Shown here in pieces: positions 5,326-52,192 of a DNA stretch of 64,000 nucleotides. Below the pieces are notes generated by a model. That model made no database searches and was not told the DNA's origin. It saw nothing but the letters and a program-made list of their open reading frames with translations. The DNA lies in contig OY969788.1 of the NCBI GenBank assembly GCA_963703115.1, positions 855,265 to 919,264 on the forward strand, given 5' to 3'. The number at the start of each line of letters is the position of its first letter. The first letter of the stretch is position 1. The DNA comes from an uncultured Alphaproteobacteria bacterium. GTDB lineage: Bacteria; Pseudomonadota; Alphaproteobacteria; Sphingomonadales; Sphingomonadaceae. A program made the translations under genes and the position numbers.

Positions 5326-5937
5326 TCAGCCCTTCAACGCTGCCACGAACTTGGTGAAGGCATCGGCGCGGTGGCTCATGGCGTGCTTTTGCGCCGGGTC
5401 CATTTCACCAAAGCTATGCTGGTGCCCGTTGGGGACGAACATCGGATCGTAGCCAAAACCCTTGTCGCCGCGCGGCGGCCAGATCAGCGTGCCGTCGACT
5501 CGGCCTTCGAAGGTTTCGGCCTGTCCGTCTTCGGGCCAGGCAATGGCAAGCGCGCAGGCGAAATGCGCGTCGGTGGACGGTTCCTCGCCGGTGTTGTGCA
5601 CGGCGTCCCAAACGCGTTTCATCGCCCGCATCCAGTCCCGCTTCCCGTCTTCGTCTTCGGCCCAGCGCGCCGAGTAAATCCCCGGGTTGCCGTGGAGCGA
5701 ATCGACTGCCAGCCCGCTGTCGTCGGCAAGTGCCGGAAAGCCCGAAAGGTCGGCCGCCTGCCGCGCCTTCAGATCGGCGTTGTCGGCGAAGGTTACCCCG
5801 GTTTCTTCCGGTTCGGGCAGGTCGAGTTCGGCGGCACTTACGCATTCGACCCCGAGCGGCTCCAGCAATTGCGCAATCTCGCGCAGCTTGCCGGGATTAT
5901 GGGTCGCGATCACCAGCTTGGGGCCGATGTTCCTCAT
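5326..5937 (-). CDS. rdgB: dITP/XTP pyrophosphatase (RdgB/HAM1 family)
   Basis: 203-aa ORF with [32 protein letters not shown] and FGYDPMF. It is adjacent to rph and hemW, as in many proteobacteria. Confidence 0.9.
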
Positions 5938-6662
5938 GCCGCATTCCCGTTGCCGGTGGCCTTGAGTTGGGCCGCAAAGATGTCGGCGCAGCCGATCCGG
6001 GCAAGCCGGAGTAGGCGAAGCAGCGATTCCTCGTCGAAGGTTGCGCCCTCGGCAGTCAATTGCGCCTCAACAATATTGCCATCGCCGGTAAGCACGAAAT
6101 TCCCGTCCGAATGGGCGTTACTGTCCTCGTCATAATCGAGGTCGAGGACCGGCGTTCCCTCGTAAATCCCGCAGCTAACCGCCGCGACCTGGGTGAGAAT
6201 GGGATCGACCTTGAGCGCTCCGGACGCGAGCAATTTGTCGATCGCGATGCGCAGCGCGACCCAACCGCCTGAAATTGAGGCGGTGCGGGTACCGCCATCG
6301 GCCTGGATGACGTCGCAATCGATAGTGATCTGGCGCTCACCGAGCTTGCCCATGTCGACGACCGCGCGCAGCGAACGGCCGATCAGGCGCTGGATTTCCT
6401 GGGTTCGGCCCGATTGCTTGCCGCGCGCTGCTTCACGGTTGCCGCGCGTGTGAGTCGCGCGGGGAAGCATCCCATATTCCGCGGTCACCCATCCTTGGCC
6501 CTTGGAGCGAAGCCACGGCGGAAGCCGTTCCTCGACGCTTGCAGTGCACAGCACCCGGGTGTCGCCGAAACTGACCAGGCACGAACCTTCGGCGTGCTTG
6601 GTGAACGCGGGCTCGAAGGTGAGGGTACGAATCTGGTCGGGTTCGCGGCCGGATGGGCGCAT
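5934..6662 (-). CDS. rph: ribonuclease PH
   Basis: [42 protein letters not shown] is near-canonical RNase PH. The ORF is open to 6671, but the conserved MRP start is at 6662. Confidence 0.92.
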
Positions 6663-6737
6663 GGGAAACATTCTCCTGATAATGGTCCGGCTGGCTCCCT
6701 AGACCGTTCGCTCTGGCAATCCTAGATAGCGCAGGCA

Positions 6738-7772
6738 ATGGCAGCACCCTTCCCCGAATTGACCGAGCGCATGCGCGATATCTTCGGCCTTGTGGTCGAA
6801 GCCTATCTTGATCGCGGGATTCCGGTCGGTTCCAAGGCGCTTGCCGGTAACATCAGCTTGTCGCCGGCATCGATCCGGGGGGTCATGAGCGACCTGGAAG
6901 AGCGCGGGCTGCTGACCCACCCGCATACCAGCGCTGGGCGCATTCCTACGGAAAGCGGGCTTCGCCTGTTCGTCGATGGGATCATGCAGGCGACGCGACC
7001 CGACCCTGATGAAGTGCGCGAAATCGAGCGGCGGATTTCCGCCGAGGCGCCGATCGAGGAACGGCTTGCGGCGGCTTCCGCGGCGCTTAGCGGCCTGTCG
7101 TCGTGCGCTGGGGTGGTAATGGCGCCCAAGGCCGACCTTCGCTTGAAACAACTCAGTTTCGTGCCCTTGAGCGAACGCCGCGCGCTTGCCGTGCTGGTCA
7201 GCGACGACGGGTCGGTCGAAAATCGCGTGGTGGCGTTGGACGGTGCAACCGGCGCTGCCGCTTTGGCCGAGATCAGCAATTACGTCACCGCGCGCATGGC
7301 GGGGTTTACGCTGGCCGAGGCCGGGGCTCGGCTGCGCACCGAAATCCGCGAGCGCAAGGAAGCGATCGACCATGCCGCCGCGGAACTCGTGGCCGCCGGG
7401 CTGGCCGACTGGAGCCGCGATAATTCCGAGCGCCCGGTGCTGATCGTGCGCGGCCAAGCCAATCTTATCGACGAGGCCGCCGCCGAAGACCTTGAGCGGG
7501 TGCGGCAATTGCTTGGCGAGCTTGAGGATACGCAGGAAATTGCGCGCCTTCTGGAGGGCGCACGCGATGCGCCGGGTTGCCGCGTGTTTATTGGCAGCGA
7601 GAATCGGATGTTCGCACTTTCAGGCTCGTCGGTGATCGCTGCCCCCTATCGCGGGAGCCAGGGCCAGGTGATCGGCGTTGTCGGTGTAATCGGGCCGACG
7701 CGGTTGAATTATGCGCGGGTGGTTCCCATGGTGGATTTCACGGCGAAAACGCTAACGAGATTGATGAGATGA
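6738..7772 (+). CDS. hrcA: heat-inducible transcription repressor HrcA
   Basis: 344-aa ORF. It has an N-terminal winged helix (LTERMRDIFGLVVEAYLDRGIPVGSKALA, SPASIRGVMSDLEERGLL). The ATGA overlap with grpE gives the conserved hrcA-grpE operon. Confidence 0.92.
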   Translation: MAAPFPELTERMRDIFGLVVEAYLDRGIPVGSKALAGNISLSPASIRGVMSDLEERGLLTHPHTSAGRIPTESGLRLFVDGIMQATRPDPDEVREIERRISAEAPIEERLAAASAALSGLSSCAGVVMAPKADLRLKQLSFVPLSERRALAVLVSDDGSVENRVVALDGATGAAALAEISNYVTARMAGFTLAEAGARLRTEIRERKEAIDHAAAELVAAGLADWSRDNSERPVLIVRGQANLIDEAAAEDLERVRQLLGELEDTQEIARLLEGARDAPGCRVFIGSENRMFALSGSSVIAAPYRGSQGQVIGVVGVIGPTRLNYARVVPMVDFTAKTLTRLMR

Positions 7773-8314
7773 GCGACGAGAACAATATGCACGACGAGGC
7801 CGAAGAGCTGCGCGAGGAAACCGCTGCGGAGGCCCCCGAACTTGCCGAGCACGACCGGGTGGCAGAACTGCAACAAGCGGTCGAGGAAGCTCAGGCCAAG
7901 GCGCTTTATGCCGCCGCCGAATTGCAGAATGCGCGTCGGCGGATGGAAAAGGAGATGGCCGACACCCGAAGCTATGCCGCGGCGGGATTTGCGCGCGACA
8001 TGCTTGCAGTCCGCGATCATCTTCAGCGTGCGATCGACCATGTTCCGCAAGGCGCACGAGAAGGCGAGATGGCGAATTTCATCGGCGGGGTCGAAGCGAC
8101 CCTTCGCGAAATCGATTCGGTGTTCGGGCGCAACGGCATCGAGAAGGTCCCGGCCAAGGGAATGCCGCTCGATCCCAACCTTCACCAGGCAATGGTCGAA
8201 ATCCCTACCGACGATTCCGAACCGGGCACGATCATCGAGGAGATGCAGGCCGGCTACAAGATGAAGGACCGGCTGCTTCGCCCGGCGATGGTCGGGGTGG
8301 CTCGCAAGCCCTAG
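7769..8314 (+). CDS. grpE: nucleotide exchange factor GrpE
   Basis: The ATG at 7769 overlaps the hrcA stop (ATGA). It has an acidic N-terminus and a coiled coil, then NARRRMEKE, FARDMLAVRDHL, DPNLHQAM and YKMKDRLLRPAMV, all typical of GrpE. Confidence 0.9.
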   Translation: MSDENNMHDEAEELREETAAEAPELAEHDRVAELQQAVEEAQAKALYAAAELQNARRRMEKEMADTRSYAAAGFARDMLAVRDHLQRAIDHVPQGAREGEMANFIGGVEATLREIDSVFGRNGIEKVPAKGMPLDPNLHQAMVEIPTDDSEPGTIIEEMQAGYKMKDRLLRPAMVGVARKP

Positions 8315-8329
8315 GCGCTTGCCGCCGTG

Positions 8330-9640
8330 CTAGAACGGGAAATAATGCTGGATCGCGATCACCCCGGCGGCCCAGGTGACAATGTTGAGCGGTAAGCCGA
8401 CCTTCAGGAAATCAACGTAATTATAGCGTCCCATCTGGTAGACGAGGACGTTGGTCTGATACCCGAACGGCGTTGCAAAGGACGCACTTCCCGCCATCAT
8501 CACCGCGATCAGGAAAGGGCGGGGGCTGACCCCCAGGCTTTGCGCCAGCGACACCGCAAGCGGGGTAATCAGCACCGCCACGGTGGCATTGGATAGCAAT
8601 TCGGTCAGGAACAAGGTCGCGCCATAAAGTCCGATCAAGGCCCACAGCGGCGGGAGATTGTCGAGCCCGCCGACCATCCACCGGGTGGCCGACCCGGCAA
8701 GGCCGGTTTCTTCCAGCGCAATCCCAAGGACGACCATCCCTGCGATCAGCATCAGAACTTCGGGCCTAAGCCCCTGATAGGCCTCGTCGGCGCTTAGAAC
8801 CCGCAGCAGGATAAGAAGGACCGCACCGGCAAATGCACAAGCGGCAATCGGCGCGACGTTCAGCGCTGCAGCGGTAATGACGCCGATGAACACCAGTCCC
8901 GCAATCACGGCCTTGCCCAGTTGCAGTTTGCGGTCCTTGGCAAAGGCCTGGACGGTGCCAAGCTGGCCGCCGGCGAGCCCGGCTTCTCCGGGCTTGTCGG
9001 GCATATCGCCGACTTCCCCGTCAGGGTGGGCACGAGCCAGCAATCGCTGTCCGATGAGTACCAGGTAGAGCCCGCCGGCAAGCGCAATCCACAGGCCGAC
9101 CGGGGTCATTTCGAACATCCCGAAATTGGGCTGGCCCGAAACGCGCGCCATGTCGTTGACGAGCAGGTTTGTCGAGGTTCCGATGAGCGTGCAGCAACCG
9201 CCCATCACGGCCGCATAGGAAAGTGGCATAAGGAACGTTTGCGGCTTCAGTTTCAACGCGGTCGCGACATCGCGGATGACGGGCGCGCTCAAGACCACGA
9301 TCGGCGTGTTGTTGAGGAACGCGGACGCTGCGCCGCAGATCCCGATCATGTACCAGATACCGGCCCGGCCAAAGCGCTTGCCAAGCGCGATCCCGCGATG
9401 GATCGCGGTGTCGAGAAGACCCGACAATTCCATCGCATAGGCAATCACGAATAGTGAGGCGAGTGCGATGATGGCCGGACTGGCGAAGGCGCTCTGCACC
9501 TCTACCGGACGGACTGCACCACTTACCAGAAGCACCGCTGCGCCGGTCAAGGCGACGACATCGGCGCGTCCTCTTTCAAAGATCAGTGCGCCAACAACCG
9601 CACCGAGCACGGCCAGCGTAATTAGTTGGTCCGCTGGCAC
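8330..9640 (-). CDS. SLC13/DASS-type anion permease (CitMHS/ArsB fold), without TrkA-C insert
   Basis: 436-aa polytopic membrane ORF with two homologous halves joined by a short hydrophilic linker. The N- and C-terminal motifs resemble SLC13-family permeases. Substrate unknown. Confidence 0.7.
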   Translation of the reverse strand: MPADQLITLAVLGAVVGALIFERGRADVVALTGAAVLLVSGAVRPVEVQSAFASPAIIALASLFVIAYAMELSGLLDTAIHRGIALGKRFGRAGIWYMIGICGAASAFLNNTPIVVLSAPVIRDVATALKLKPQTFLMPLSYAAVMGGCCTLIGTSTNLLVNDMARVSGQPNFGMFEMTPVGLWIALAGGLYLVLIGQRLLARAHPDGEVGDMPDKPGEAGLAGGQLGTVQAFAKDRKLQLGKAVIAGLVFIGVITAAALNVAPIAACAFAGAVLLILLRVLSADEAYQGLRPEVLMLIAGMVVLGIALEETGLAGSATRWMVGGLDNLPPLWALIGLYGATLFLTELLSNATVAVLITPLAVSLAQSLGVSPRPFLIAVMMAGSASFATPFGYQTNVLVYQMGRYNYVDFLKVGLPLNIVTWAAGVIAIQHYFPF

Positions 9641-43674: not shown

Positions 43675-45339
43675 ATGAATTTCCGCAACATCCTAGAAAT
43701 TGCCGAGCGCTATCGCGCCGCGCTTCTGCGTTTGGCGCTGTTCGCGATAATTTCGTCCGCATCGGCACTGACCCTTCCCTGGTTTGCCGGGGAATTGTTC
43801 GGCACGGTGATTGATCGCGACGCTTCTACCTCGGTTGCAAGGCCGATAGGGTTGCTGGTTGCAGCACTGCTTGTGACGAGCATGTTCAGTGTCATCGCCG
43901 GGATCCAAACCGCGGTTCTTGAAATCCGGGTGCTGACCGATCTGCGCCAGCGAATTTTCGAACATGTCCAGCGACTTCCGATCGGTTTCCACGAGAATAG
44001 GGGTAAGGGAGATACGTTGGCGCTGATGACCTACGAGGTGGGGCATCTTTCGCATTATCTGACCGGGACCATGGCGCTTATTCCCGCCCGCCTTCTTACC
44101 GCAATTGGTGCAATCGCAGCCATGTTCTGGATCAATGCCCGGACGGCGCTGATCGTGCCCTTTCTTATTCCGGCCATTTACCTTTTTCTCAAAATCCTGG
44201 GTCGAAGCCTGCGGGGGGTGGCGGCAGCAATCCAGCATGCCGAAGCCGAGGTCGTCGAGGTTGCTGAGCAATCTCTGGACATTCTCCCGGCGACCAAAGC
44301 CTTCACTCGCGAGGTGATGGCAGCAGCGAATTATCGCGTCGTTACGGAGGAAGCCGCGCGGCTCTCGGTTAATCGCCGTCGGATTGAAGCAATGATCGAT
44401 CCCATGCTGGGGCTGATCGCTGCCGTCGCGTCAATTCTTGTATTGTTGACAGTCGGGCAGGGGTTGCGGGCGGGCAATCTGAATGTCGCCGAGCTTTTCA
44501 GCTTTCTGTTTTATGCGATGCTCCTGACCCGACCAGCAAGCGCATTGTCCCATATTTACGGAGAAACTCAGAACGCCTTGGGAACCAGCGCGCGAATGCA
44601 ATCGGTACTCGAACAATCGGTTGAGCAGATGCGGACGACGAAAAATAGCCGGCGTGCACAAGGCAAGATCGTGTTCGAAAACATCTCGTTCGCTTATCCC
44701 GGGCGGGACAGCCTGTTACGCAACCTCGACCTTGAAATTTCCCCCGGTGAGAAGATCGCGATCGTCGGGCCGAACGGTTCGGGCAAGACCGCGCTCGTCA
44801 ATCTGCTTTTGCGATATTACGAGCCGGACGGGGGGAGAATTCTCCTCGATGATACTGACATTCGCGATTATGGCTTCGCCGACTTGCGGCAGCAAATCGG
44901 GCTGGTTCCGCAAACGCCCCTGCTGTTCAATTCGACGATCCGGGACAATGTGTGCTTCGGCTCGCCAGATGCGTCGCCCGTCGATCTCAACCGCGTTCTC
45001 CAGCTGGCCCAGGCCAAGAAATTTATCGACGACCTTCCAAAAGGGCTCGAGACGACCATCGGCGACCGGGGCGTTCGTTTGTCAGGGGGACAGAAGCAGC
45101 GCCTCGCGCTGGCCCGCGCCTTGATCAAGGACCCTCCGATTCTGATCCTCGATGAAGCGACCTCCATGTTCGATCTGGGTGGGGAAGTCGCGCTGGTTGC
45201 CGGCATCGAAAAGGCGATCAAGGGCCGCACAGTAATCTTTATCACTCACCGCCTGATGTTGCTCGACCTCGCCGACCGTATTTTCGAAATTAATGACGGG
45301 AAGCTGGTGGACATTGGGAAACAGAGAACTCGAAGTTGA
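43675..45339 (+). CDS. ABC exporter, fused permease-ATPase (McjD/MsbA type); candidate lasso-peptide D protein
   Basis: 554 aa: six-TM domain, then Walker A GPNGSGKT, ABC signature LSGGQKQRLALARAL and Walker B ILILDEATS. There is no N-terminal C39 peptidase domain. It is the first gene of the lower-GC island. Confidence 0.88.
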   Translation: MNFRNILEIAERYRAALLRLALFAIISSASALTLPWFAGELFGTVIDRDASTSVARPIGLLVAALLVTSMFSVIAGIQTAVLEIRVLTDLRQRIFEHVQRLPIGFHENRGKGDTLALMTYEVGHLSHYLTGTMALIPARLLTAIGAIAAMFWINARTALIVPFLIPAIYLFLKILGRSLRGVAAAIQHAEAEVVEVAEQSLDILPATKAFTREVMAAANYRVVTEEAARLSVNRRRIEAMIDPMLGLIAAVASILVLLTVGQGLRAGNLNVAELFSFLFYAMLLTRPASALSHIYGETQNALGTSARMQSVLEQSVEQMRTTKNSRRAQGKIVFENISFAYPGRDSLLRNLDLEISPGEKIAIVGPNGSGKTALVNLLLRYYEPDGGRILLDDTDIRDYGFADLRQQIGLVPQTPLLFNSTIRDNVCFGSPDASPVDLNRVLQLAQAKKFIDDLPKGLETTIGDRGVRLSGGQKQRLALARALIKDPPILILDEATSMFDLGGEVALVAGIEKAIKGRTVIFITHRLMLLDLADRIFEINDGKLVDIGKQRTRS

Positions 45340-45464: not shown

Positions 45465-47354
45465 TTGAGCGGAGTGGCAGCCATTATCCGATTTGACGGT
45501 GGTGAGGTTGAACCCGGCTTGATCGAAAAAATCACGGCGGCGATGAGTTATCGGGGCTGTGACGGGATACGTCACCTTTCGCGCGGATCCATCGCGTTAG
45601 GTCATTGCATGTTACACACGACCAAGGAGTCGCTGGAAGAAACTCAGCCGCTTTGCAATGAGGACGAAAGCTTGATGCTGGTCATGGATGGCTGGCTCAG
45701 CAATTGGACTGAACTTCGCTCCGAACTGATTGCTCGAGGATCGCATTTACGCACGCGCTCCGACGCTGAACTTGTACTGCGTGCCTACGAAGTCTGGGGT
45801 GAGGATTGCCCACAGCATATCGACGGCGAGTTCGCTTTCGTCATCTGGGACCAGAACCGTCGCGAAGCGTTCGTAGCCGGCGATCACGTCGGTTTAAAAC
45901 CACTGCATTATCACTGGGATGGCCGCCAACTTGTCGTTGCCTCCGACATTGTGGGCGTGTTGGCGATGCCGGGTTTTTCACGCGAACCAAACCTGGCGCG
46001 AATATCGGAATATCTTAAATTCGAATGGGGCACGCGTGGGCAGACAATCTGGAAGGGCGTGTCTCGCGCCGTTCCCGCACACTCGATGCGATTTAGAAAC
46101 GGCCATTGCGAGAGCAGGAAATATTGGGAACCGCCGCTTGAAACCACCATTTTCTATAAGCGCGACGAGGAATATTTCGAACACTACCGGCACCTTTTTA
46201 CCGAATGCGTCCGCAGAGCATCGCGAACGCACAAGCCGCTTGCTTGCGACGTCAGCGGCGGGCTGGATTCCTCAGCTGTTTTTGCAATGGCTCATGAACT
46301 GCGGCGCAAGGGGACCCTGCCCGCACCTGGGGTCAAGGGCTACACCTATTTTTTCAAAGATGCCGAAGGCACCGAACACGACGAGATTGAATATGCGCGT
46401 GCGACCGCACGACACCTGGGGGTAGCTCTTAAAGAGGTCCCGCCTTTCCTTCCCGATATGCAGTGGTTTCTGGAGCGCGGGCGGATGGACTGTGACATCG
46501 CCGGCTATCCTAACGGAGCAATGTCGATCGCCATTGGCAAAACCCTGGTCGCCGATGGCTGCCGCGTGAGTTTGAACGGCGAGGGCGGCGATGAATTCTT
46601 GGCTGGAACTCGATTTTACTTCGCTGAGCAGCTCGCGGCGCGCGAGTGGGGCAAGTTATCGCAGACCTTTATCGAAGATACGGCCGAAATCGGTCTACGA
46701 AAAACGGCCTGGAACCTGTTGCGTTTCGGGCTTGCTCCGATGTTGCCGGTCCCGGTTTTGGAGGTGCTCCGCAATCTTCGGGAACGCCGACGGATAGGCG
46801 AGTTGGACAAAGCTGCCTGGATCAAAGCGGAATTGAGGAACTCGGCGAATCTAAAGGGATTGAGGCCTGGTCATGAACTAATGCAATTGGCCAAGTCGGC
46901 TCGTCGCTGCAAACATCTGGTCCTGAATGATCCCTTTGCGCTGGTGGTTTGGGACCAGTTCTCACGACAAAGTGCCAGAGTTGGCTACGAAATTCGCACT
47001 CCAATGTACGCAAGAGAATTCATCGACTTCTCCTTTGCCACGCCCGAGCGGATCAGGCTTCGGGGAGAGCGCCGGAAATTTATTCATGTCAGAGCGCTTG
47101 AGGGATTGCTTCCCGAAGTCGTGGCCAATCGAAAAACCAAGGCAGACTTCGGAATTGCCTTTACCCGCCTTCTTGAAATGGTGAAGAGTCATTTAATGGA
47201 TGCGGTAGATGGGGATGGTTCCGACTACCTAGACAAGAAAGGGCTCGCACGATTGTTCGAGCGGCAGCAGGCGGAGCCGGACGATTTCCGGTTGGTCTGG
47301 CATGTGTGGACGCTTTTCGAATTGAATGATATTTTGATGCAAAATGAGAATTAA
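45465..47354 (+). CDS. asparagine-synthetase-like protein lacking the Cys nucleophile; candidate lasso cyclase (C protein)
   Basis: 629 aa with a TTG start preceded by GAGGAG. The N-terminus is MSGVAAI rather than MCG. AsnB fold motifs are present (LGHCMLH, SDAELVL, GEFAFVIWD, GLKPLHY) together with the ATP-PPase loop DVSGGLDSSAVFAM. Confidence 0.8.
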   Translation: MSGVAAIIRFDGGEVEPGLIEKITAAMSYRGCDGIRHLSRGSIALGHCMLHTTKESLEETQPLCNEDESLMLVMDGWLSNWTELRSELIARGSHLRTRSDAELVLRAYEVWGEDCPQHIDGEFAFVIWDQNRREAFVAGDHVGLKPLHYHWDGRQLVVASDIVGVLAMPGFSREPNLARISEYLKFEWGTRGQTIWKGVSRAVPAHSMRFRNGHCESRKYWEPPLETTIFYKRDEEYFEHYRHLFTECVRRASRTHKPLACDVSGGLDSSAVFAMAHELRRKGTLPAPGVKGYTYFFKDAEGTEHDEIEYARATARHLGVALKEVPPFLPDMQWFLERGRMDCDIAGYPNGAMSIAIGKTLVADGCRVSLNGEGGDEFLAGTRFYFAEQLAAREWGKLSQTFIEDTAEIGLRKTAWNLLRFGLAPMLPVPVLEVLRNLRERRRIGELDKAAWIKAELRNSANLKGLRPGHELMQLAKSARRCKHLVLNDPFALVVWDQFSRQSARVGYEIRTPMYAREFIDFSFATPERIRLRGERRKFIHVRALEGLLPEVVANRKTKADFGIAFTRLLEMVKSHLMDAVDGDGSDYLDKKGLARLFERQQAEPDDFRLVWHVWTLFELNDILMQNEN

Positions 47355-47376: not shown

Positions 47377-47779
47377 TTGCCGAGCGAAAAGAGCGCAGTT
47401 GCGAATGAACCTGGCGCCAAGCCCGACAAAGCGAATGTCGGGACGAAGCTGGAATATGAAACTCCGACACTGACAATTTATGGTTCAGTCAGGGAACTAA
47501 CGGGGTCAGGGTCAGGCGGGTCTTCCGATGGTGGCATGCCCATGGCCGTCGTCGGATTCTGCTGTAAAAGAACATGTCGTGCGGGTCGGGGACCATCCGG
47601 CCGGCTTCGGGATATACCTGTTCGATTACAAGCCGGAGTTCCGCAACTCATTTGGTCATGGTCGACAATTTGGCGTCATCGCAGATGAAGTTGAGCGGGT
47701 TGTCCCCGAGGCCGTCACCATTGGCAGCGATGGCTACAGGCGGGTTTGCTACAGCTTGCTTGGGATCGAACGACAGTGA
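47377..47779 (+). CDS. lasso-type RiPP precursor (YxxPxLx3Gx5TxG leader), apparently continuing across a 1-nt frame break into a peptidase-S74 autoprocessing domain
   Basis: Frame A starts at the TTG at 47377 (GAGGTG 5 nt upstream) and reads MPSEKSAVANEPGAKPDKANVGTKLEYETPTLTIYGSVRELTG|SGSGGSSDGGM.... Frame B is open from 47501 to TGA 47777-47779 and reads ...PWPSSDSAVKEHVVRVGDHPAGFGIYLFDYKPEFRNSFGHGRQFGVIADEVERVVPEAVTIGSDGYRRVCYSLLG, the S74/CIMCD pattern with S-D-x-x-x-K. Deleting one C of the CCC run 47539-47541 fuses them into a 133-aa protein. Confidence 0.6.
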
Positions 47780-47817: not shown

Positions 47818-48942
47818 TTGCTGACAACGCTGGAAGAGCATCACGGCTATCTCTCTGACGAGAGGCGCCTTGAGAGATTCCGCGAAGCAATTGGCCATGC
47901 GGTTCGGCCGGGTGATCTTGTCGCCGACGTTGGCTGCGGTTTCGGGATACTTGGACTGATGTGCCTTCAGGCGGGCGCCTCTAGAGTATGGGGGATCGAC
48001 CGAACGGACGCGATTGAAATTGCCCGGGAGAGCTTGGGTCGCGCGGGTTTTGGCGACCGCTACACCTGCATTCGTGATCATTCGTCCCGGGTGATCTTGC
48101 CAGAAATGGTTGATGTCATCGTCTGCGATAACGTCGGTTATTTCGGGATAGATTACGGCATCGTCGAAACACTGGCCGACGCTCGTCGCCGTTTCCTCAA
48201 ACCAGGCGGCCGGATAGTGCCCAGCCGGATCAGGCTGATGCTGGCCGGGGTTGCTTCGCCAGAATGCCGCGGCAAGGCAGAAGGCTGGGACGATCCGCGC
48301 GTACCCGACGAATATCATTGGCTGCGCGAATTCGGGGTCAATTCGAAATTTGCGCACATGTTTGAAACGGATGAAATCGCTACCGAGTCTCTCATCGTCG
48401 GCACGATTGATCTCAATACGGACAGCCCAGACACATTTTCATGCCAAGTGTCCCTGACTGCCACTCAAGACGCTGTACTGGATGGGCTCGGTGGGTGGTT
48501 CGAGTGCGAGCTGTCGCCGGACAATTGGATGACGAATTCACCGCTTGCGCACGATCAAATCGACAGGCCACAAATCTTTCTGCCTTTCGATACGCCGATC
48601 ACTGTTGGCGCGGGTGACAGTGTAGAAGTTTCAATCGTTGTTCGCCATGATGCGCACCTGTTCGCTTGGAGCGTGCGAGACCCCCGGACGGGCGTAAAGC
48701 AGAAACAATCTACTTGGCGAAGTCGCATTCTGGCTGAATCCGATCTGTCTCCGAAGTCTGATCGGCCATTGCAACTTAGTGCCGAAGGCCATGCGCGCAG
48801 CATTATTTGCGACTATGTCGACGGCAATCGCAGTGCGCGGCAAATTGAGGATGCCGTTTTGTCCGATCATCCCGATTTACTCCCGTCGTCCGAAGAAATC
48901 CGCCGATTTGTGGGAAAAGAATTGGCCCGGAACGCTCGATGA
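47818..48942 (+). CDS. PRMT-fold class I SAM methyltransferase with C-terminal PqqD-like (RRE) extension
   Basis: LEEHHGYLSDERRLERFREAIGHAVRPGDLVADVGCGFGILGLMCLQAGASRVWGIDRTD matches the protein arginine methyltransferase signature and SAM motif I. GGWFECELS...NSPLAH...QIFLPFDTPITVGAGDSV resembles the PRMT beta-barrel. The last ~70 aa (ARSIICDYVDGNRSARQIEDAVLSDHPDLLPSSEEIRRFVGKEL) look PqqD-like. Confidence 0.7.
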   Translation: MLTTLEEHHGYLSDERRLERFREAIGHAVRPGDLVADVGCGFGILGLMCLQAGASRVWGIDRTDAIEIARESLGRAGFGDRYTCIRDHSSRVILPEMVDVIVCDNVGYFGIDYGIVETLADARRRFLKPGGRIVPSRIRLMLAGVASPECRGKAEGWDDPRVPDEYHWLREFGVNSKFAHMFETDEIATESLIVGTIDLNTDSPDTFSCQVSLTATQDAVLDGLGGWFECELSPDNWMTNSPLAHDQIDRPQIFLPFDTPITVGAGDSVEVSIVVRHDAHLFAWSVRDPRTGVKQKQSTWRSRILAESDLSPKSDRPLQLSAEGHARSIICDYVDGNRSARQIEDAVLSDHPDLLPSSEEIRRFVGKELARNAR

Positions 48943-49799
48943 TCTTTCATCTGGAGCAATTGGCCGCAAAGCCGCAAGGTGAGATCGAAGACAGTCCATA
49001 TGACCGCTGGCTGAGCGTCGAAGGCCAGGACGTCGCGCTATTTTACCGTACGGACCAAAGCTTTTTGGTGCGGTTCCAGGATAAGGCAGATTTTGAATTA
49101 TCTGTCGGTAGGGGGGTCGTCACCTGCACGCCGGCGCCTGACGTTTCGGGTCAAACGACGATCGATCTGTTTCACAACCAGGTGATCCCCCTACTTCTCA
49201 ATCATCAGGGCGAATTGGTGCTCCATGGAAGCGCTGTTGCTGGAAGCACTGGCGCCCTGGGTTTCATCGGGCAATCGGGCAGCGGCAAGTCAACGATTGC
49301 AGCCTATTTTGCGAAGGCAGGCCATCCGTTCATGACCGACGATGGCCTGTTTTTGAAGGAAGCGGGATCCGCATATAACGTTGAACCTTATCGTCCCTAC
49401 CTGCGTCTTTGGTCTGACAGCAATCAAGCGGTGCTTGGCCGGAAGCCTCCCACCGCGGAGGAGGGAGAAGACAACAAAACACTGATCGATGCCGGGCCAT
49501 CACTTCCATTTCAGGAGACGCCGTTGCCGCTGGCTGCGCTATATCTTCTAGGCAGTAGGGAGGTGGAGAAGGTTTCGGTCGAACGCATGAAGCCCGACCT
49601 GGCGCTATTGGCGTTGCTAAAGCACTCCTTCATCCTTGATGTGGACGATCGCCAACGGTTGAAAGCCCATTTCGAACGTTTGGCAAAGCTGTCGGAAGCA
49701 ATTCTATGCTTCACTCTCGAATATCCGCGGGATTATGGGGTGTTCCCCGAGTTGATCCCCACGGTTCTTAACCACGCGTCATCGGAAGGTGTCTTATGA
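48939..49799 (+). CDS. HPr-kinase-related serine kinase (RiPP/lasso tailoring kinase type)
   Basis: 286 aa with an ATGA overlap with the methyltransferase gene. VLHGSAVAGSTGALGFIGQSGSGKSTIAAYFAKAGHPFMTDDGLF matches the HprK C-terminal P-loop region (Walker A at 49269-49295). Confidence 0.75.
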   Translation: MIFHLEQLAAKPQGEIEDSPYDRWLSVEGQDVALFYRTDQSFLVRFQDKADFELSVGRGVVTCTPAPDVSGQTTIDLFHNQVIPLLLNHQGELVLHGSAVAGSTGALGFIGQSGSGKSTIAAYFAKAGHPFMTDDGLFLKEAGSAYNVEPYRPYLRLWSDSNQAVLGRKPPTAEEGEDNKTLIDAGPSLPFQETPLPLAALYLLGSREVEKVSVERMKPDLALLALLKHSFILDVDDRQRLKAHFERLAKLSEAILCFTLEYPRDYGVFPELIPTVLNHASSEGVL

Positions 49800-50080
49800 A
49801 TTTAACCGACAAGATGGTCGCCTCGGACGAAGTCGTCGCTCGTGACGTGGGAGGCGAAACTGTCCTTCTGAATCTCGCGAGTGGCACCTATTTCGGTCTC
49901 AACTCGGTCGGTGCGCGAATTTGGACCATCGTCGAAAATGACGAAAACTTAAGCATGTCGCAAGTTTGCGACACCTTAGCGAATGAATTTGATGTCTCGC
50001 GTCAGCAGTTAGAGGGCGATGTACTGAACCTTGCGACTGAACTCGTCGAACAAAAGCTTGTCGTCATCAAGGAAGAATAG
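49796..50080 (+). CDS. PqqD-family protein (lasso B1 / RiPP recognition element)
   Basis: 94 aa with an ATGA overlap with the kinase gene. VVARDVGGETVLLNLASGTYFGLNSVGARIWTIVENDENLSMSQVCDTLANEFDVSRQQLEGDVLNLATELVEQKLV is a textbook PqqD pattern. Confidence 0.85.
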   Translation: MNLTDKMVASDEVVARDVGGETVLLNLASGTYFGLNSVGARIWTIVENDENLSMSQVCDTLANEFDVSRQQLEGDVLNLATELVEQKLVVIKEE

Positions 50081-50123: not shown

Positions 50124-50966
50124 TCAGAGTATCTGGCTGACGTCACTTAGCTCGCTCAATTCAGGAATACCGAATAGCTCGGCCCATGTTTTCGGCTGGC
50201 ATAGGTCGGAAGTCCCCACCGGGATGTAATGAAGGAACAGCAGGTCACAAAATTGCCGACCAGGGTTGCGAGGCAGCGGTTCACGGAAATGCCACTGATT
50301 GGTACCGGAAAATAAAACCGCGTCTCCCGGCTGCAAGACCTCCTGCGTAAAGCGCATTTTCGGGTCCGATGGCACGGCGTTAAAGTCGACGCTCTCCAGT
50401 TCGGACCTTGTTTCGGGCCATGGTACAGGGCGGCTGAAGCTGATTGGCCACGGGTCACTTTGGTCGATGCAAATGTCGAGCGTCCATTTTGCCGAAGGAG
50501 CATCAAGATGGGGCCGACATACGCCGCGGCCAGTATACAGGCTCAAGAAATTGTAGCTCGGCTCAACCAACTCGCCGGCGAGTTCGGACACTGCTTCAAC
50601 TAGTCGGGATTGCAGTTCGGTGAAGGGCGGCCAGCGATGAACAATAAAGCGGCCGAACTCTTCAGCTTCGGTCAGATTGAGGGATTCGCGGGGGATCTTC
50701 CTGATCGTGTCCCGGATTTCGTCCAGCTGCAATTCGCTCAGGAAGTCGGACACAAACCGCTGGGTGAAGTCCGGTGCTATGCGCAAGGGATCGAAGCTGC
50801 GTTCAAACTCCTGCAGGCGAGCGGGTGCAACACGCGCAATGATTTCTTTCGCCTCGATATATTTTGTCAGCCAGATCGAATCATACCAGCGCTTTTCCCG
50901 CGCAATCGGGTTTGAGCCCTGTTTCCTAGCGGCTGTCAGCACTTTGATCCGTCCATTTTCGTTCAC
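50124..50966 (-). CDS. putative Fe(II)/2-oxoglutarate-dependent oxygenase
   Basis: 280 aa. LSLYTGRGVCRPHLDAPSAKWTLDICI carries an HxD (His153/Asp155). LQPGDAVLFSGTNQWHFREP carries a distal His226. The spacing fits the 2-His-1-carboxylate facial triad of a cupin. This is motif-level evidence only. Confidence 0.45.
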   Translation of the reverse strand: MNENGRIKVLTAARKQGSNPIAREKRWYDSIWLTKYIEAKEIIARVAPARLQEFERSFDPLRIAPDFTQRFVSDFLSELQLDEIRDTIRKIPRESLNLTEAEEFGRFIVHRWPPFTELQSRLVEAVSELAGELVEPSYNFLSLYTGRGVCRPHLDAPSAKWTLDICIDQSDPWPISFSRPVPWPETRSELESVDFNAVPSDPKMRFTQEVLQPGDAVLFSGTNQWHFREPLPRNPGRQFCDLLFLHYIPVGTSDLCQPKTWAELFGIPELSELSDVSQIL

Positions 50967-51025: not shown

Positions 51026-52192
51026 TCAATTCTTCACCCGATCAGGGCGACTGCGAAGCAGGTCGATAATACGCCTGACATATAGCGCCGCTAATGGAAA
51101 ATTTTGCATGCTCGGATATTTTCCGCGCAGGAAATTCGCAGGAGGAAGTGTCCGTTGAGCCAGAAATCTGACTTTGTTGCGAAGCCCTTTCACAGCTTTC
51201 AGATCCTGTAGCGCCCGACCTGCCTGGCCCAGTTCAAGCAGATAGATAGAGGGACCGGACGCAGAAGCGGGTGCCTGGCCTAGGCGCTCCATCACGCCTG
51301 ACGATACAACAGTATCGAAGTGGCTCATCGCGAACTTCAAACCATCGAGGCAAACCGGCGCCAGTTCCATTCGAATGGCGGTCTCGCAAAACGCGCTCCA
51401 CTCTGCTTGCGAAAGTGCACCGGCAAGGAGGTGAATATCATAGGCCCAGATCAGCCGGTCGCCGCCATAATAAGTCACACCGTCGACCATGTATGGACTG
51501 GTGATATGGGTGGCGCGATGCATGGACGCATGGATCAGCATTGTCGCGCGATCCATCGTGAAGGCATTGTCGTCGAGGAGCGGCAGGACTCGCTTGTTCG
51601 CGGCGCAATCAGCGAAAACAAGCGTTTGGCGAAGCGCCATCGAATTCATCGCTTGCCAGTGGAGATCGATGACATGGTTAGTCCCATCCCCTGAAGCGAA
51701 GTTCCAGATTTCCTGGAGTTCAAGATCGTCGGATCTTCCAGCGCACGGCGGGGCCAAGCAAAAGCCGCATTTGGCGAGCGCAAGCCGGGTCTGTTCCAAC
51801 TCCTCCCGCTTTACCAAAAGGTCGGTGTCTCCACGTGCGCGAGTGGCGGGTTTCGCGTAAAGATCGTAGGCTAAAGCGGTGCCTTTCAGGATAAGGGATT
51901 TGATCCCATTTTGACGAAGTTCGGCAAGAAGCCGTGTGAGCATTTGTCTATGACGGACTTCCCACATTTCCTGCGCGATTGCCTGCTGGTGCAAGCGTTC
52001 GAACACTTCCTTGGGCCATCCAATCGGCCGGCCTTCGATCAGCAGGCCAGCGATGCCATGATAGAGCGCGCGATCAACAACGGCCGCCCAAGTCGATGCG
52101 TGATTCCAATGATCCGGCCAGGCGGTACAGCAATTGCCCAACGTTCTTGAAAAGAACCGATCGATTGAATCGCTCAAATTGGCCATTGCCAT
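51026..52192 (-). CDS. NTP_transf_5-type uncharacterised nucleotidyltransferase
   Basis: 388 aa. GIKSLILKGTALAYDLYAKPATRARGDTDLLVKREE and HVIDLHW fit the family that accompanies HprK-like kinases and PqqD proteins in kinase-containing lasso clusters. Confidence 0.65.
   Translation of the reverse strand: MAMANLSDSIDRFFSRTLGNCCTAWPDHWNHASTWAAVVDRALYHGIAGLLIEGRPIGWPKEVFERLHQQAIAQEMWEVRHRQMLTRLLAELRQNGIKSLILKGTALAYDLYAKPATRARGDTDLLVKREELEQTRLALAKCGFCLAPPCAGRSDDLELQEIWNFASGDGTNHVIDLHWQAMNSMALRQTLVFADCAANKRVLPLLDDNAFTMDRATMLIHASMHRATHITSPYMVDGVTYYGGDRLIWAYDIHLLAGALSQAEWSAFCETAIRMELAPVCLDGLKFAMSHFDTVVSSGVMERLGQAPASASGPSIYLLELGQAGRALQDLKAVKGLRNKVRFLAQRTLPPANFLRGKYPSMQNFPLAALYVRRIIDLLRSRPDRVKN

What the first reader, a model, noticed from the sequence alone, without database searches (positions are those of the whole stretch)
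47818..48942. Eukaryote-like PRMT-fold methyltransferase carrying its own PqqD-like recognition domain
The first ~300 aa have the protein arginine N-methyltransferase signature: H-x-x-(M/Y)L-x-D-x-x-R-x-x-x-(Y/F)-x-x-AI, followed by SAM motif I VADVGCGFGILG and a WFECELS / SPL...QIFLPF beta-barrel-like region. The final ~70 aa (about 48730-48939) resemble a PqqD/RRE domain (DYVDGNRSARQIEDAVLSDHPDLLPSSEEIRRFVGKEL). PRMT-fold enzymes are rare in bacteria, and I know of none fused to an RRE. The fusion implies leader-guided methylation of the precursor. It also gives the island two independent RREs. The target is unclear: the predicted core has no Arg, while the leader has Arg-5 and the S74 domain has several.
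Basis: partly seen in the sequence, partly recalled or inferred. Interest (0 to 1): 0.65.

Follow-up and report, generated by a model that had tools for sequence, protein, structure and literature searches.

The report
PRMT-fold methyltransferase in a lasso-peptide cluster
This gene encodes a methyltransferase built like eukaryotic protein arginine methyltransferases, with an extra PqqD-like tail; it is a conserved but unstudied part of a widespread family of bacterial lasso-peptide gene clusters, and it probably does not methylate arginine.

Summary
The ORF at 47818-48942 (+) is real and intact.

**PRMT fold.** Residues 1-~298 have a complete type-I PRMT fold. The family profile matches PRMT1 in the PDB at E 7e-38. 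The AlphaFold model has pLDDT 92.7, and Foldseek gives TM 0.84 to PRMT3.

**Active site.** It is not canonical. The double-E loop reads C-D-(H/N)-V-G-Y-F-G-x-D-Y, and the THW loop is replaced by x-I-x-R.

**Tail.** Residues ~299-374 form three helices. Pfam and PDB sequence searches miss them. A profile-profile comparison with genuine PqqD gives probability 82% and P 1e-5, against a best score of 15.3 in 64 control windows versus 31.6 for the tail. Ten of 28 tails weakly hit the NCBIfam PqqD model. No beta-sheet wing is predicted, so a leader-binding (RRE) function is plausible but unproven.

**Context.** In 83 loci from Alpha-, Beta- and Gammaproteobacteria the order is lasso cyclase, precursor, this methyltransferase, HprK-like kinase, PqqD/B1. 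Its stop codon overlaps the kinase start.

**Substrate.** The associated cores are rich in Gly, Ser and Met. Only 13 of 70 contain Arg, so arginine is an unlikely conserved acceptor.

**Novelty.** No description of this enzyme type turned up in the literature I could search. I rate it a new variant of a known kind, of moderate to high interest.

The parts
47818..48942 (+). Methyltransferase ORF, 374 aa, TTG start. The TGA stop overlaps the ATG of the downstream kinase (ATGA at 48939-48942).
   Evidence: The N-terminus agrees with 40 homologues in alignment A1.
47818..48711 (+). PRMT-type catalytic core (residues 1-298): N-terminal helix, Rossmann SAM-binding domain, dimerisation-arm helices (148-174) and beta-barrel.
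   Evidence: PDB phmmer E 4e-22. Profile E 7e-38 over residues 8-279. AlphaFold pLDDT 92.7. Foldseek TM 0.84 to PRMT3.
47920..47955 (+). SAM motif I, VADVGCGFGILG (residues 35-46). D37, G39 and G41 are invariant in 74 relatives.
48124..48159 (+). Equivalent of the PRMT double-E loop: C103-D104-N105-V-G107-Y-F109-G110-I-D112-Y113-G. PRMT1 has S-E-W-M-G-Y-F-L-L-Y-E-S here. The family consensus is CDHVGYFGFDYG. The window has N105 where 70 of 74 relatives have H.
48529..48579 (+). Region aligned to the PRMT THW loop. The family-invariant motif M238-T-N240-S-P242 is followed by I248-x-R250-x-Q252-x-F254. His and Trp of THW are replaced by Ile and a variable residue.
48712..48939 (+). C-terminal tail (residues 299-374), conserved in all full-length family members. 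A linker with two short helices is followed by three helices: 322-333, 340-350 and 358-372.
48799..48918 (+). Segment (residues 328-367) that aligns without gaps to PqqD positions 40-79, from the end of alpha1 to alpha3. It includes the D-G turn and the I-x3-L...(H/F)-P...(I/V)-x2-F-(V/L) pattern.
   Evidence: hhalign probability 82%, P 1.1e-5. NCBIfam TIGR03859 hits map tail 26-80 to profile 25-77.
47377..47547 (+). Context: lasso precursor. The leader has the Y-x2-P-x-L...T-G motif. The predicted core is SGSGGSSDGGMPMA, with an 8-residue ring from S1 to D8 inferred.
   Evidence: NCBIfam NF033521 E 3.7e-6
47549..47779 (+). Context: Peptidase_S74 (intramolecular chaperone/autoprotease) domain starting SSDSAVKEH. 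It lies in the +1 frame relative to the core; one extra base (G47548) separates them.
   Evidence: Pfam PF13884 E 3.4e-7. In-frame fusions occur in 29 of 70 relatives.
48939..49799 (+). Context: HprK-like peptide kinase, translationally coupled to the methyltransferase.
   Evidence: It lies next to the methyltransferase in 78 of 83 loci.
49796..50080 (+). Context: discrete PqqD-family B1 protein, the bona fide lasso RRE.
   Evidence: Pfam PqqD E 3.4e-16. NCBIfam lasso_PqqD_Bac E 8.8e-17. TbiB1 E 1e-12.
45465..47354 (+). Context: lasso cyclase (Asn-synthetase-like).
   Evidence: NF033535 E 5e-94. Present upstream in 72 of 83 loci.
43675..45339 (+). Context: ABC exporter.
50124..50966 (-). Context: conserved 280-aa protein of unknown family, present in 33 of 83 related loci.
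51026..52192 (-). Context: NTP_transf_5 nucleotidyltransferase, present in 40 of 83 related loci.

Best explanation
The gene encodes a SAM-dependent tailoring methyltransferase of a lasso-peptide pathway.

**Architecture.** The catalytic part is a complete type-I PRMT scaffold: N-terminal SAM-capping helix, Rossmann domain, dimerisation arm and beta-barrel. The substrate pocket has been remodelled into a family-specific, nearly invariant form: C-D-H-V-G-(Y/F)-F-G-x-D-Y, plus M-T-N-S-P...I-x-R. Fused to the last barrel strand is a ~75-residue domain that is a remote homologue of PqqD. Helices alpha1-alpha3 are recognisable; the beta wing is degenerate or not predicted.

**Most likely mechanism (inferred).** The enzyme binds the linear, leader-bearing precursor, either through this PqqD-like domain or with the help of the separate B1 protein. 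It transfers a methyl group to the Gly/Ser/Met-rich core before leader removal and cyclisation. It works in one operon, and probably in concert, with the HprK-like peptide kinase to which it is translationally coupled. The acceptor is most likely not arginine.

**Shown:** the fold, the SAM motifs, the altered pocket, the PqqD-like homology, and the conserved synteny.

**Inferred:** that the precursor is the substrate, that the tail binds it, the timing, and the acceptor atom.
For: **Fold and SAM site.**. D37/G39/G41, D61, R17, D104, G107, F109, G110, D112, Y113, M238, N240, P242 and R250 are invariant or nearly so in 74 relatives. This argues for an active enzyme with a defined pocket.

**PqqD-like tail.** hhalign gives probability 82%, P 1.1e-5, score 31.6, against at most 15.3 in 64 controls. 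This exceeds B1 versus PqqD at 24.1. Ten of 28 tails hit TIGR03859 and 7 of 28 hit NF002535, and the matches are collinear. In the Foldseek search of the tail, PqqD 3g2b was the hit with the highest probability. TbiB1 superposes at 2.2 A over 48 columns, although every E-value exceeds 1.

**Pathway membership.** The order cyclase, precursor, MT, kinase, B1 holds across 83 loci: kinase 78, cyclase 72, B1 71. In two Erythrobacter loci the precursor-MT pair persists alone among housekeeping genes.

**Not arginine.** Only 13 of 70 cores contain Arg and 12 of 70 contain Lys. Met (69 of 70) and Ser/Thr (70 of 70) are universal. The double-E and THW motifs are altered, whereas other bacterial PRMT-fold enzymes in guanidine-chemistry clusters keep E...E.

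**Precedent.** Characterised lasso tailoring enzymes (StspM, lasso kinases, BsfK with B1) act on the linear precursor (PMC8498205, PMC10368454).
Against: - No biochemical data exist, and the acceptor residue cannot be deduced.
- The tail is missed by Pfam PF05402 and by PDB profile searches.
- The tail scores no better than shuffled decoys against an HMM of the neighbouring B1 proteins, and only weakly against B1 profiles.
- No beta strands are predicted in the tail, so the beta3/alpha3 peptide cleft of an RRE is not evident.
- A separate B1 is nearly always present and could serve the methyltransferase, as it does the kinase BsfK. A built-in RRE is therefore not required.
- Two invariant acidic residues remain in the pocket (D104, D112). 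A cationic nitrogen acceptor, including Arg where it is present, is not excluded.
- In this particular window the pathway may be impaired: the precursor/S74 junction is frameshifted, no B2 protease lies within 64 kb, and the pocket carries N105 instead of H.
Confidence: 0.6

Rival explanations
1. One reading: a genuine protein arginine N-methyltransferase with a fully functional fused RRE. It binds the YxxPxL leader and methylates an arginine of the precursor (leader Arg-5, a core Arg, or the S74 domain).
For: PRMT fold and SAM motifs. Two acidic residues are retained in the double-E-loop region (D104, D112). The tail is PqqD-like. 13 of 70 cores and most alphaproteobacterial leaders contain Arg.
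Against: - The second Glu is Tyr, the first is Asp, and the THW loop is lost.
- 57 of 70 cores have no Arg. The window's own core (SGSGGSSDGGMPMA) has none.
- Leader Arg-5 is replaced by H, K, S, A or G in beta- and gammaproteobacterial members.
- 41 of 70 precursors lack the S74 domain.
- No beta wing is predicted in the tail.
Confidence: 0.12
2. The methyltransferase belongs to the pathway, but the C-terminal domain is not a peptide-recognition element. It would be a structural, dimerisation or docking module, for example for the kinase or B1, and substrate delivery would depend on the discrete B1 RRE.
For: B1 is present in 71 of 83 loci. B1 is known to stimulate a lasso kinase in trans (PMC10368454). 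The tail lacks predicted beta strands. The MT, kinase and B1 genes are translationally coupled. Winged-helix and three-helix domains are generic; weak hits include the PKMT winged helix, Fur and forkhead.
Against: The tail is as similar to genuine PqqD as B1 is. In RiPP enzymes, PqqD-like domains are typically peptide binders (established knowledge of RREs; PMC12710340). The precursor-MT pair occurs without a B1 nearby in L072 and L082.
Confidence: 0.2
3. The enzyme does not act on the lasso precursor at all. It would methylate another protein or a small molecule, for example as self-immunity by modifying the cellular target, or by modifying the phosphate or sugar added by the kinase and nucleotidyltransferase.
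For: The acceptor is unknown and the cores lack a conserved N-nucleophile. Other bacterial PRMT-fold enzymes act on free arginine: SznE (PMC11705231, PMC12637814), with plasmid homologues. The gene is tightly linked to the kinase.
Against: The gene always lies directly after the precursor gene. The tail is PqqD-like. A precursor-MT two-gene module occurs in L072 and L082. Methylation of a kinase-installed phosphate would still be tailoring of the peptide.
Confidence: 0.08

Closest known systems
Eukaryotic type-I protein arginine methyltransferases (PRMT1/Hmt1, PRMT3, PRMT6, CARM1)
   Same: The overall architecture and order of elements match: N-terminal H-x3-L-x-D-x2-R helix, motif I V-x-D-V-G-C-G-x-G-I-L, an acidic residue after beta2, an L-K-P-G-G motif, dimerisation-arm helices and the beta-barrel. 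Identity is 20-25%, profile E 7e-38, TM 0.84.
   Different: The double-E loop is D...D-Y instead of E...E. The THW loop is replaced by x-I-x-R. A family-specific invariant M-T-N-S-P motif is present. There is an extra PqqD-like C-terminal domain. The setting is a bacterial lasso-peptide operon, and the associated substrates mostly lack Arg.
Bacterial PRMT-fold small-molecule methyltransferases such as SznE/StzE (free L-arginine guanidino N-methyltransferase of streptozotocin biosynthesis)
   Same: They are bacterial, have a PRMT-like core with beta-barrel, and are encoded in natural-product clusters. Plasmid homologues from Pantoea and Streptomyces share 25-28% identity over residues 8-275. 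The SznE function is taken from PMC11705231 and PMC12637814.
   Different: Those enzymes keep Glu at both double-E positions, and the Pantoea one keeps H-W. They lack the PqqD-like tail. They sit beside HDO, cupin, Rieske and ATP-grasp genes, not lasso genes. That the plasmid hits are SznE-type is my inference from their neighbours.
Known lasso-peptide methyltransferases: LasF/StspM (C-terminal carboxyl O-methyltransferase) and PIMT homologues (aspartimide formation in cellulonodin-2 and lihuanodin)
   Same: They are SAM-dependent tailoring enzymes encoded inside lasso clusters. StspM acts on the linear precursor (PMC8498205, PMC9266682).
   Different: Their folds and families differ (small-molecule O-MT-like and PIMT). 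They occur in Actinobacteria and Firmicutes and have no fused PqqD-like domain. Here the fold is PRMT, the hosts are Proteobacteria, and the chemistry is unknown.
PqqD / RiPP recognition elements (PqqD of PQQ biosynthesis; lasso B1 proteins TbiB1 and TfuB1)
   Same: The helix-turn (D-G)-helix-loop-helix pattern is collinear with PqqD positions ~25-80. hhalign gives P 1e-5. There are recurrent weak TIGR03859 hits. TbiB1 superposes at 2.2 A over 48 residues.
   Different: There is no PF05402 match. No three-stranded sheet is predicted. Similarity to the cluster's own B1 is weak. The domain is fused to a class-I methyltransferase.
Kinase-containing lasso clusters (paeninodin pade; Sphingobium syan; Bradymonas bsf with BsfK/BsfB1/BsfN)
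   Same: The gene set is shared: A, B1, (B2), C, D, an HprK-like kinase K and a nucleotidyltransferase N. Tailoring takes place on the leader-bearing precursor (PMC8498205, PMC10368454).
   Different: In the accounts I read, none of those clusters is described with a methyltransferase between A and K. Here many precursors also carry a C-terminal S74 domain.

Membership tests
Type-I protein arginine methyltransferase (PRMT) | Two-domain fold: Rossmann SAM-binding domain plus beta-barrel with a dimerisation arm | tested here: met
   AlphaFold pLDDT 92.7. Foldseek E ~1e-26 and TM 0.84 to PRMT3 over ~300 columns.
Type-I protein arginine methyltransferase (PRMT) | SAM-binding motifs: N-terminal helix Arg, motif I GxGxG, and an acidic residue after beta2 | tested here: met
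   R17, VADVGCGFG and D61 are conserved in 74 relatives.
Type-I protein arginine methyltransferase (PRMT) | Double-E loop with two glutamates that clamp the guanidinium | tested here: not met
   PRMT SEWMGYFLLYES aligns with CDNVGYFGIDYG. The first E becomes D104 and the second E becomes Y113. D112 lies one position earlier.
Type-I protein arginine methyltransferase (PRMT) | THW loop | tested here: not met
   T-H-W aligns with Q-I248-D in the window (family x-I-x), followed by invariant R250.
Type-I protein arginine methyltransferase (PRMT) | Arginine as the methyl acceptor | not testable with these tools
   Indirect evidence only: 57 of 70 associated core peptides contain no Arg.
PqqD family / RiPP recognition element (RRE) | Match to PqqD sequence models | tested here: inconclusive
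   Pfam PF05402: 0 of 28 tails. NCBIfam TIGR03859: 10 of 28 tails, best E 0.007, all below the cut-off. hhalign against a PqqD alignment: probability 82%, P 1.1e-5, controls at most 15.3 versus 31.6.
PqqD family / RiPP recognition element (RRE) | Three-helix bundle of the winged helix-turn-helix | tested here: met
   Helices 322-333, 340-350 and 358-372. TbiB1 superposes at 2.2 A over 48 columns, although the Foldseek E-value exceeds 1.
PqqD family / RiPP recognition element (RRE) | Three-stranded beta sheet whose beta3 forms the peptide-binding cleft with alpha3 (definition as in PMC12710340) | tested here: not met
   DSSP finds no strands in residues 299-321 of either model. Only a low-confidence extended alignment places S-T-W and P-L-Q-L on PqqD beta1 and beta3.
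PqqD family / RiPP recognition element (RRE) | Binds the leader peptide | not testable with these tools
Lasso-peptide biosynthetic gene cluster (context of the gene) | Asn-synthetase-like cyclase, PqqD/B1, and a precursor with the YxxPxL...T-x leader | tested here: met
   NF033535 E 5e-94, lasso_PqqD_Bac E 9e-17, NF033521 E 3.7e-6.
Lasso-peptide biosynthetic gene cluster (context of the gene) | B2 leader peptidase (transglutaminase-core) | tested here: not met
   None is found in the 64 kb window by tblastn or by an HMM built from 28 B2 proteins. B2 is present within 8 kb in 37 of 83 related loci.

The most novel reading that the evidence does not exclude
A PRMT scaffold has been repurposed in bacteria for a non-arginine methylation of ribosomal peptides. 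Candidate acceptors are a Met sulfur, a Ser/Thr oxygen or a kinase-installed phosphate, or a backbone or other nitrogen, within Gly/Ser/Met-rich lasso cores. Under this reading the enzyme carries its own degenerate PqqD-type recognition domain, so it reads the precursor independently of B1. The pathway would also often use precursors that shed a C-terminal S74 autoprotease domain. That would be a new reaction type for the PRMT fold and a new class of lasso tailoring.
Probability: 0.3. Interest if true: 0.8.

Novelty: new variant of a known kind. Interest (0 to 1): 0.6.

Why it matters
Lasso peptides are valued scaffolds, and only a handful of tailoring reactions are known for them. This family would add a third, structurally unrelated kind of methyltransferase. 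It is present in at least 80 clusters across three proteobacterial classes.

It would also be a case of the eukaryote-typical PRMT fold working on a ribosomal natural product, with a remodelled pocket. Because most substrates lack arginine, identifying the acceptor could reveal new chemistry for this fold.

The PqqD-like fusion bears on RRE mining as well. The RRE-Finder authors discarded about 1,050 methyltransferase hits as presumed false positives (bioRxiv 10.1101/2020.03.14.992123). Whether this family is among them is not known. This family shows that at least some methyltransferase-PqqD-like fusions sit in genuine RiPP clusters.

Tried and rejected
**Searches on the tail that gave nothing significant**
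- Pfam scan of 28 tails: no PqqD hit. There were only two weak hits to PF21782, the PKMT winged helix.
- PDB profile search with the tail: nothing significant.
- HMM of 52 neighbouring B1 proteins against real, shuffled and reversed tails: real tails score no better than decoys.
- hhalign of the tail against B1 alignments: P 0.0017 and 0.046. The first is barely above the best of 39 control windows. I had provisionally concluded 'not PqqD-like'. The NCBIfam scan and the comparison with genuine PqqD reversed that.
- Foldseek of the tail-only model (pLDDT 78): every E-value exceeds 1. PqqD and TbiB1 appear among generic winged-helix proteins.
- Whole-library HMM search with the tail profile: 480 hits, but the 150 listed are family members or fragments. 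No bridging sequences turned up.

**Attempts to infer the acceptor**
- Core conservation shows no conserved Arg, Lys, His, Asn or Gln. Only Gly1, Ser/Thr at positions 2-3, the ring acid and Met are conserved.
- One methyltransferase-less sister cluster (L064, minus strand) has a similar core, so it is uninformative.
- The composite cluster in L038 is not methyltransferase-free.

**Rejected targets**
- Leader Arg-5 and the Arg residues of the S74 domain are rejected as general targets, because neither is conserved or universally present.

**Other checks**
- The promoter/terminator scan was uninformative.
- Literature searches for lasso plus PRMT, arginine methyltransferase, S74 or methionine-rich found nothing relevant. 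Two reviews I wanted were not held.
Full report
**1. What is at the coordinates**

- The ORF at 47818-48942 (+) encodes 374 aa from a TTG start.
- The N-terminus matches that of 40 aligned homologues.
- The TGA stop overlaps the ATG of the next gene (ATGA at 48939-48942). That gene in turn overlaps the start of the following one.

**2. Genomic setting**

The gene lies inside a lasso-peptide island:

| Coordinates | Strand | Gene | Evidence |
|---|---|---|---|
| 43675-45339 | + | ABC exporter | |
| 45465-47354 | + | Asn-synthetase-like lasso cyclase | NF033535 E 5e-94 |
| from 47377 | + | precursor with lasso leader | NF033521 E 3.7e-6 |
| 47818-48942 | + | the methyltransferase | this report |
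| 48939-49799 | + | HprK-like kinase | |
| 49796-50080 | + | discrete PqqD/B1 protein | Pfam E 3e-16; TbiB1 E 1e-12, |
| 50124-50966 | - | conserved unknown protein | |
| 51026-52192 | - | NTP_transf_5 nucleotidyltransferase | |

**3. The PRMT claim**

- phmmer against the PDB returns almost only protein arginine methyltransferases among its 60 best hits. The best is E 4e-22 to PRMT1/Hmt1.
- A profile of 41 family members gives E 7e-38 and aligns residues 8-279, including the beta-barrel.
- The AlphaFold2 model built on that alignment is confident (pLDDT 92.7, pTM 0.82).
- Foldseek against the PDB lists only PRMT3, PRMT1, Hmt1, PRMT6, PRMT2 and CARM1 among its 50 best hits. E-values are about 1e-26 and TM is 0.84 over ~300 columns.
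- The fold assignment is therefore secure, and the SAM-binding elements are intact.

**4. The catalytic pocket is not that of an arginine methyltransferase**

- PRMT S-E-W-M-G-Y-F-L-L-Y-E-S aligns with C-D-N-V-G-Y-F-G-I-D-Y-G. The first Glu is Asp104. The second Glu is Tyr113, with Asp112 one position earlier.
- The T-H-W loop aligns with x-Ile248-x followed by Arg250.
- These replacements are not decay. In 74 relatives, C103, D104, G107, F109, G110, D112, Y113, M238, N240, P242 and R250 are invariant.
- The window copy differs from columns conserved at 90% or more at only one site. It has N105 where 70 of 74 relatives have His.
- Two other bacterial PRMT-fold enzymes were found on Pantoea and Streptomyces plasmids. 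They sit beside HDO, cupin, Rieske and ATP-grasp genes. They keep Glu at both positions and lack the tail.
- SznE of streptozotocin biosynthesis is a characterised arginine-guanidino methyltransferase acting on free arginine (PMC11705231, PMC12637814). I infer that the plasmid enzymes are of that kind.

**5. The tail**

- Residues ~299-374 are conserved across the family. They fold as three helices, 322-333, 340-350 and 358-372, in both the full-length and tail-only models.
- The first tests were negative or weak:
  - There was no PF05402 hit in 28 tails and no PDB profile hit.
  - Tails scored no better than shuffled decoys against an HMM of the neighbouring B1 proteins.
  - hhalign against B1 gave P 0.0017 and 0.046.
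  - Foldseek gave E above 1 for every hit. PqqD 3g2b had the highest probability (0.69), and TbiB1 superposed at 2.2 A over 48 columns.
- Two further tests changed the picture:
  1. Scanning the 28 tails against NCBIfam made the PQQ-pathway PqqD model TIGR03859 the most frequent family of 18,950. Ten of 28 tails hit it (best E 0.007), and 7 of 28 hit a second PqqD model. Tail positions ~26-80 map collinearly on profile positions 25-77 of 81.
  2. I built an alignment of genuine PqqD proteins. hhalign of the 74-sequence tail alignment against it gives probability 82%, P 1.1e-5 and score 31.6. That is 40 gap-free columns, MT 328-367 on PqqD 40-79. Under identical conditions the bona fide B1 family scores 24.1. 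Sixty-four control windows from other proteins of these loci score at most 15.3.
- I conclude that the tail is a remote PqqD homologue, at least for alpha1-alpha3.
- The beta sheet is not predicted, so the beta3/alpha3 peptide cleft that defines an RRE (PMC12710340) is not evident. Only a low-confidence extended alignment places S-T-W and P-L-Q-L on PqqD beta1 and beta3. Homology is supported; RRE function is not shown.

**6. Distribution and synteny**

- The family has 812 protein clusters at E <= 1e-5. The best 120 are almost all ~374 aa. JGI names many of them PRMT1, and NCBI names them L11 methyltransferase or class-I methyltransferase.
- 119 species-representative genomes encode a relative. 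They are mostly Sphingomonadales, Burkholderiales, and Competibacteraceae or Chromatiaceae, plus one Cyanobium and one acidobacterial MAG.
- In 83 loci the order is cyclase, precursor, MT, kinase, B1. The kinase is adjacent in 78, the cyclase in 72 and B1 in 71. Most exceptions are contig ends.
- In two Erythrobacter loci, a precursor plus the methyltransferase sit alone among housekeeping genes.
- This is strong guilt-by-association evidence that the precursor peptide is the substrate.

**7. The substrates**

- I compared seventy precursors. They share the leader Y-x2-P-x-L-x3-G-x5-T-x.
- The cores are 14-34 residues long. The pattern is G/S/A/T/N at position 1, S/G/M at 2, S/G/A/T at 3, G at 4, and D/E at 8 (8-residue ring inferred). 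A tail containing Met follows.
- Composition is Gly 23%, Met 17% and Ser 12%.
- Arg occurs in 13 cores, Lys in 12 and His in 3. Met occurs in 69, and in 67 it lies within the last six residues. Ser/Thr occurs in all 70.
- Leader Arg-5 is confined to the alphaproteobacterial members.
- Arginine is therefore unlikely to be the conserved acceptor, and the real acceptor cannot be deduced from sequence.
- Known precedents are a lasso kinase, BsfK, that phosphorylates Ser3 with help from B1, and tailoring enzymes that prefer the linear precursor (PMC10368454, PMC8498205).

**8. Literature**

- Searches of the held library for lasso peptides combined with arginine methyltransferase, PRMT, HPr kinase plus methyltransferase, S74 or methionine-rich returned nothing describing this enzyme.
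- Reviews list only the StspM/LasF carboxyl O-methyltransferase and the PIMT homologues as lasso methyltransferases.
- The RRE-Finder authors set aside 1,050 methyltransferase hits as presumed false positives.

**9. Verdict**

  - The PRMT fold is established.
  - The PqqD-like domain is supported as remote homology, but with no predicted wing.
  - A canonical arginine methyltransferase is not supported.
  - Leader-guided action is plausible but untested.
- Most likely this is a precursor-directed tailoring methyltransferase that works with the adjacent kinase (confidence about 0.6).
- This particular copy sits in a cluster that may be impaired: the core/S74 junction is frameshifted and no B2 lies within 64 kb.
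- I rate it a new variant of a known kind, with interest 0.6.

Noticed in passing
window 47377-47779; L002 9567-9965; 29 of 70 related precursors: Many lasso precursors next to this methyltransferase are fused in frame to a C-terminal Peptidase_S74 (intramolecular chaperone/autoprotease) domain. It starts S-D-x3-K immediately after the core. An example is the 132-aa Sphingomonas lutea precursor. Autocleavage would release the leader-core peptide. I found no description of this in the held literature.
   Followed up: partly
window 47545-47557: In the window the core (...GGMPMA, ending at 47547) and the S74 domain (SSDSAVKEH..., from 47549) are separated by one extra base, G47548. The S74 domain is therefore in the +1 frame and remains open for its full length. 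This could be a sequencing error, a recent frameshift or recoding; I could not decide which.
   Followed up: partly
L005 7730-7732: In a related Sphingomonadales MAG, a TAG stop sits exactly where the S74 catalytic Ser codon should be. That is one base change from TCG. The downstream S74 reading frame is fully intact. The closest relatives (L003, L004) have short precursors with no S74 domain at all. This suggests repeated uncoupling or loss of the domain.
   Followed up: partly
whole window 1-64000: No B2 leader peptidase (Transglut_core3) is detectable anywhere in the 64 kb, by tblastn or by an HMM of 28 B2 proteins. B2 lies within 8 kb of the methyltransferase in 37 of 83 related loci.
   Followed up: yes
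window 48130-48132 (codon 105): The window's methyltransferase has Asn at position 105 of the remodelled double-E loop. Of 74 relatives, 70 have His and 3 have Gln. It is the only deviation from columns conserved at 90% or more.
   Followed up: yes
L072 and L082, about 7700-9122: In two Erythrobacter genomes an intact precursor gene and the methyltransferase form a two-gene module among housekeeping genes (SSB, COQ9, YceD, BamE). No cyclase, kinase or B1 lies within 8 kb.
   Followed up: partly
window 50124-50966 (-): A 280-aa protein with no Pfam, NCBIfam or PDB match is conserved next to the B1 gene or near the cyclase in 33 of 83 related loci. It is probably another uncharacterised component of the pathway.
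   Followed up: partly
core peptides of 70 related loci (e.g. L061, L040, L077): The predicted cores are unusually rich in methionine (17% of residues). In 45 of 70 there is an M-x-M or M-M motif within the last eight residues. Some end in long (G/M)n runs. The meaning is unknown; metal binding and the methyl acceptor are both possibilities.
   Followed up: no
L083 (Pantoea plasmid) 5935-6900; L084 (Streptomyces plasmid) 5854-6957: Tail-less bacterial PRMT-fold methyltransferases sit beside HDO-type iron enzymes, Rieske or cupin proteins, ATP-grasp, amidinotransferase and arginine-deiminase-family genes. This resembles streptozotocin-type guanidine/N-nitroso chemistry. They retain the two Glu residues of the double-E loop.
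   Followed up: partly
L038 2688-7126: A Dechloromonas genome carries three different S74-fused precursors and two kinase genes in one composite cluster. A nucleotidyltransferase/HEPN-like gene pair is inserted just upstream of the methyltransferase.
   Followed up: no
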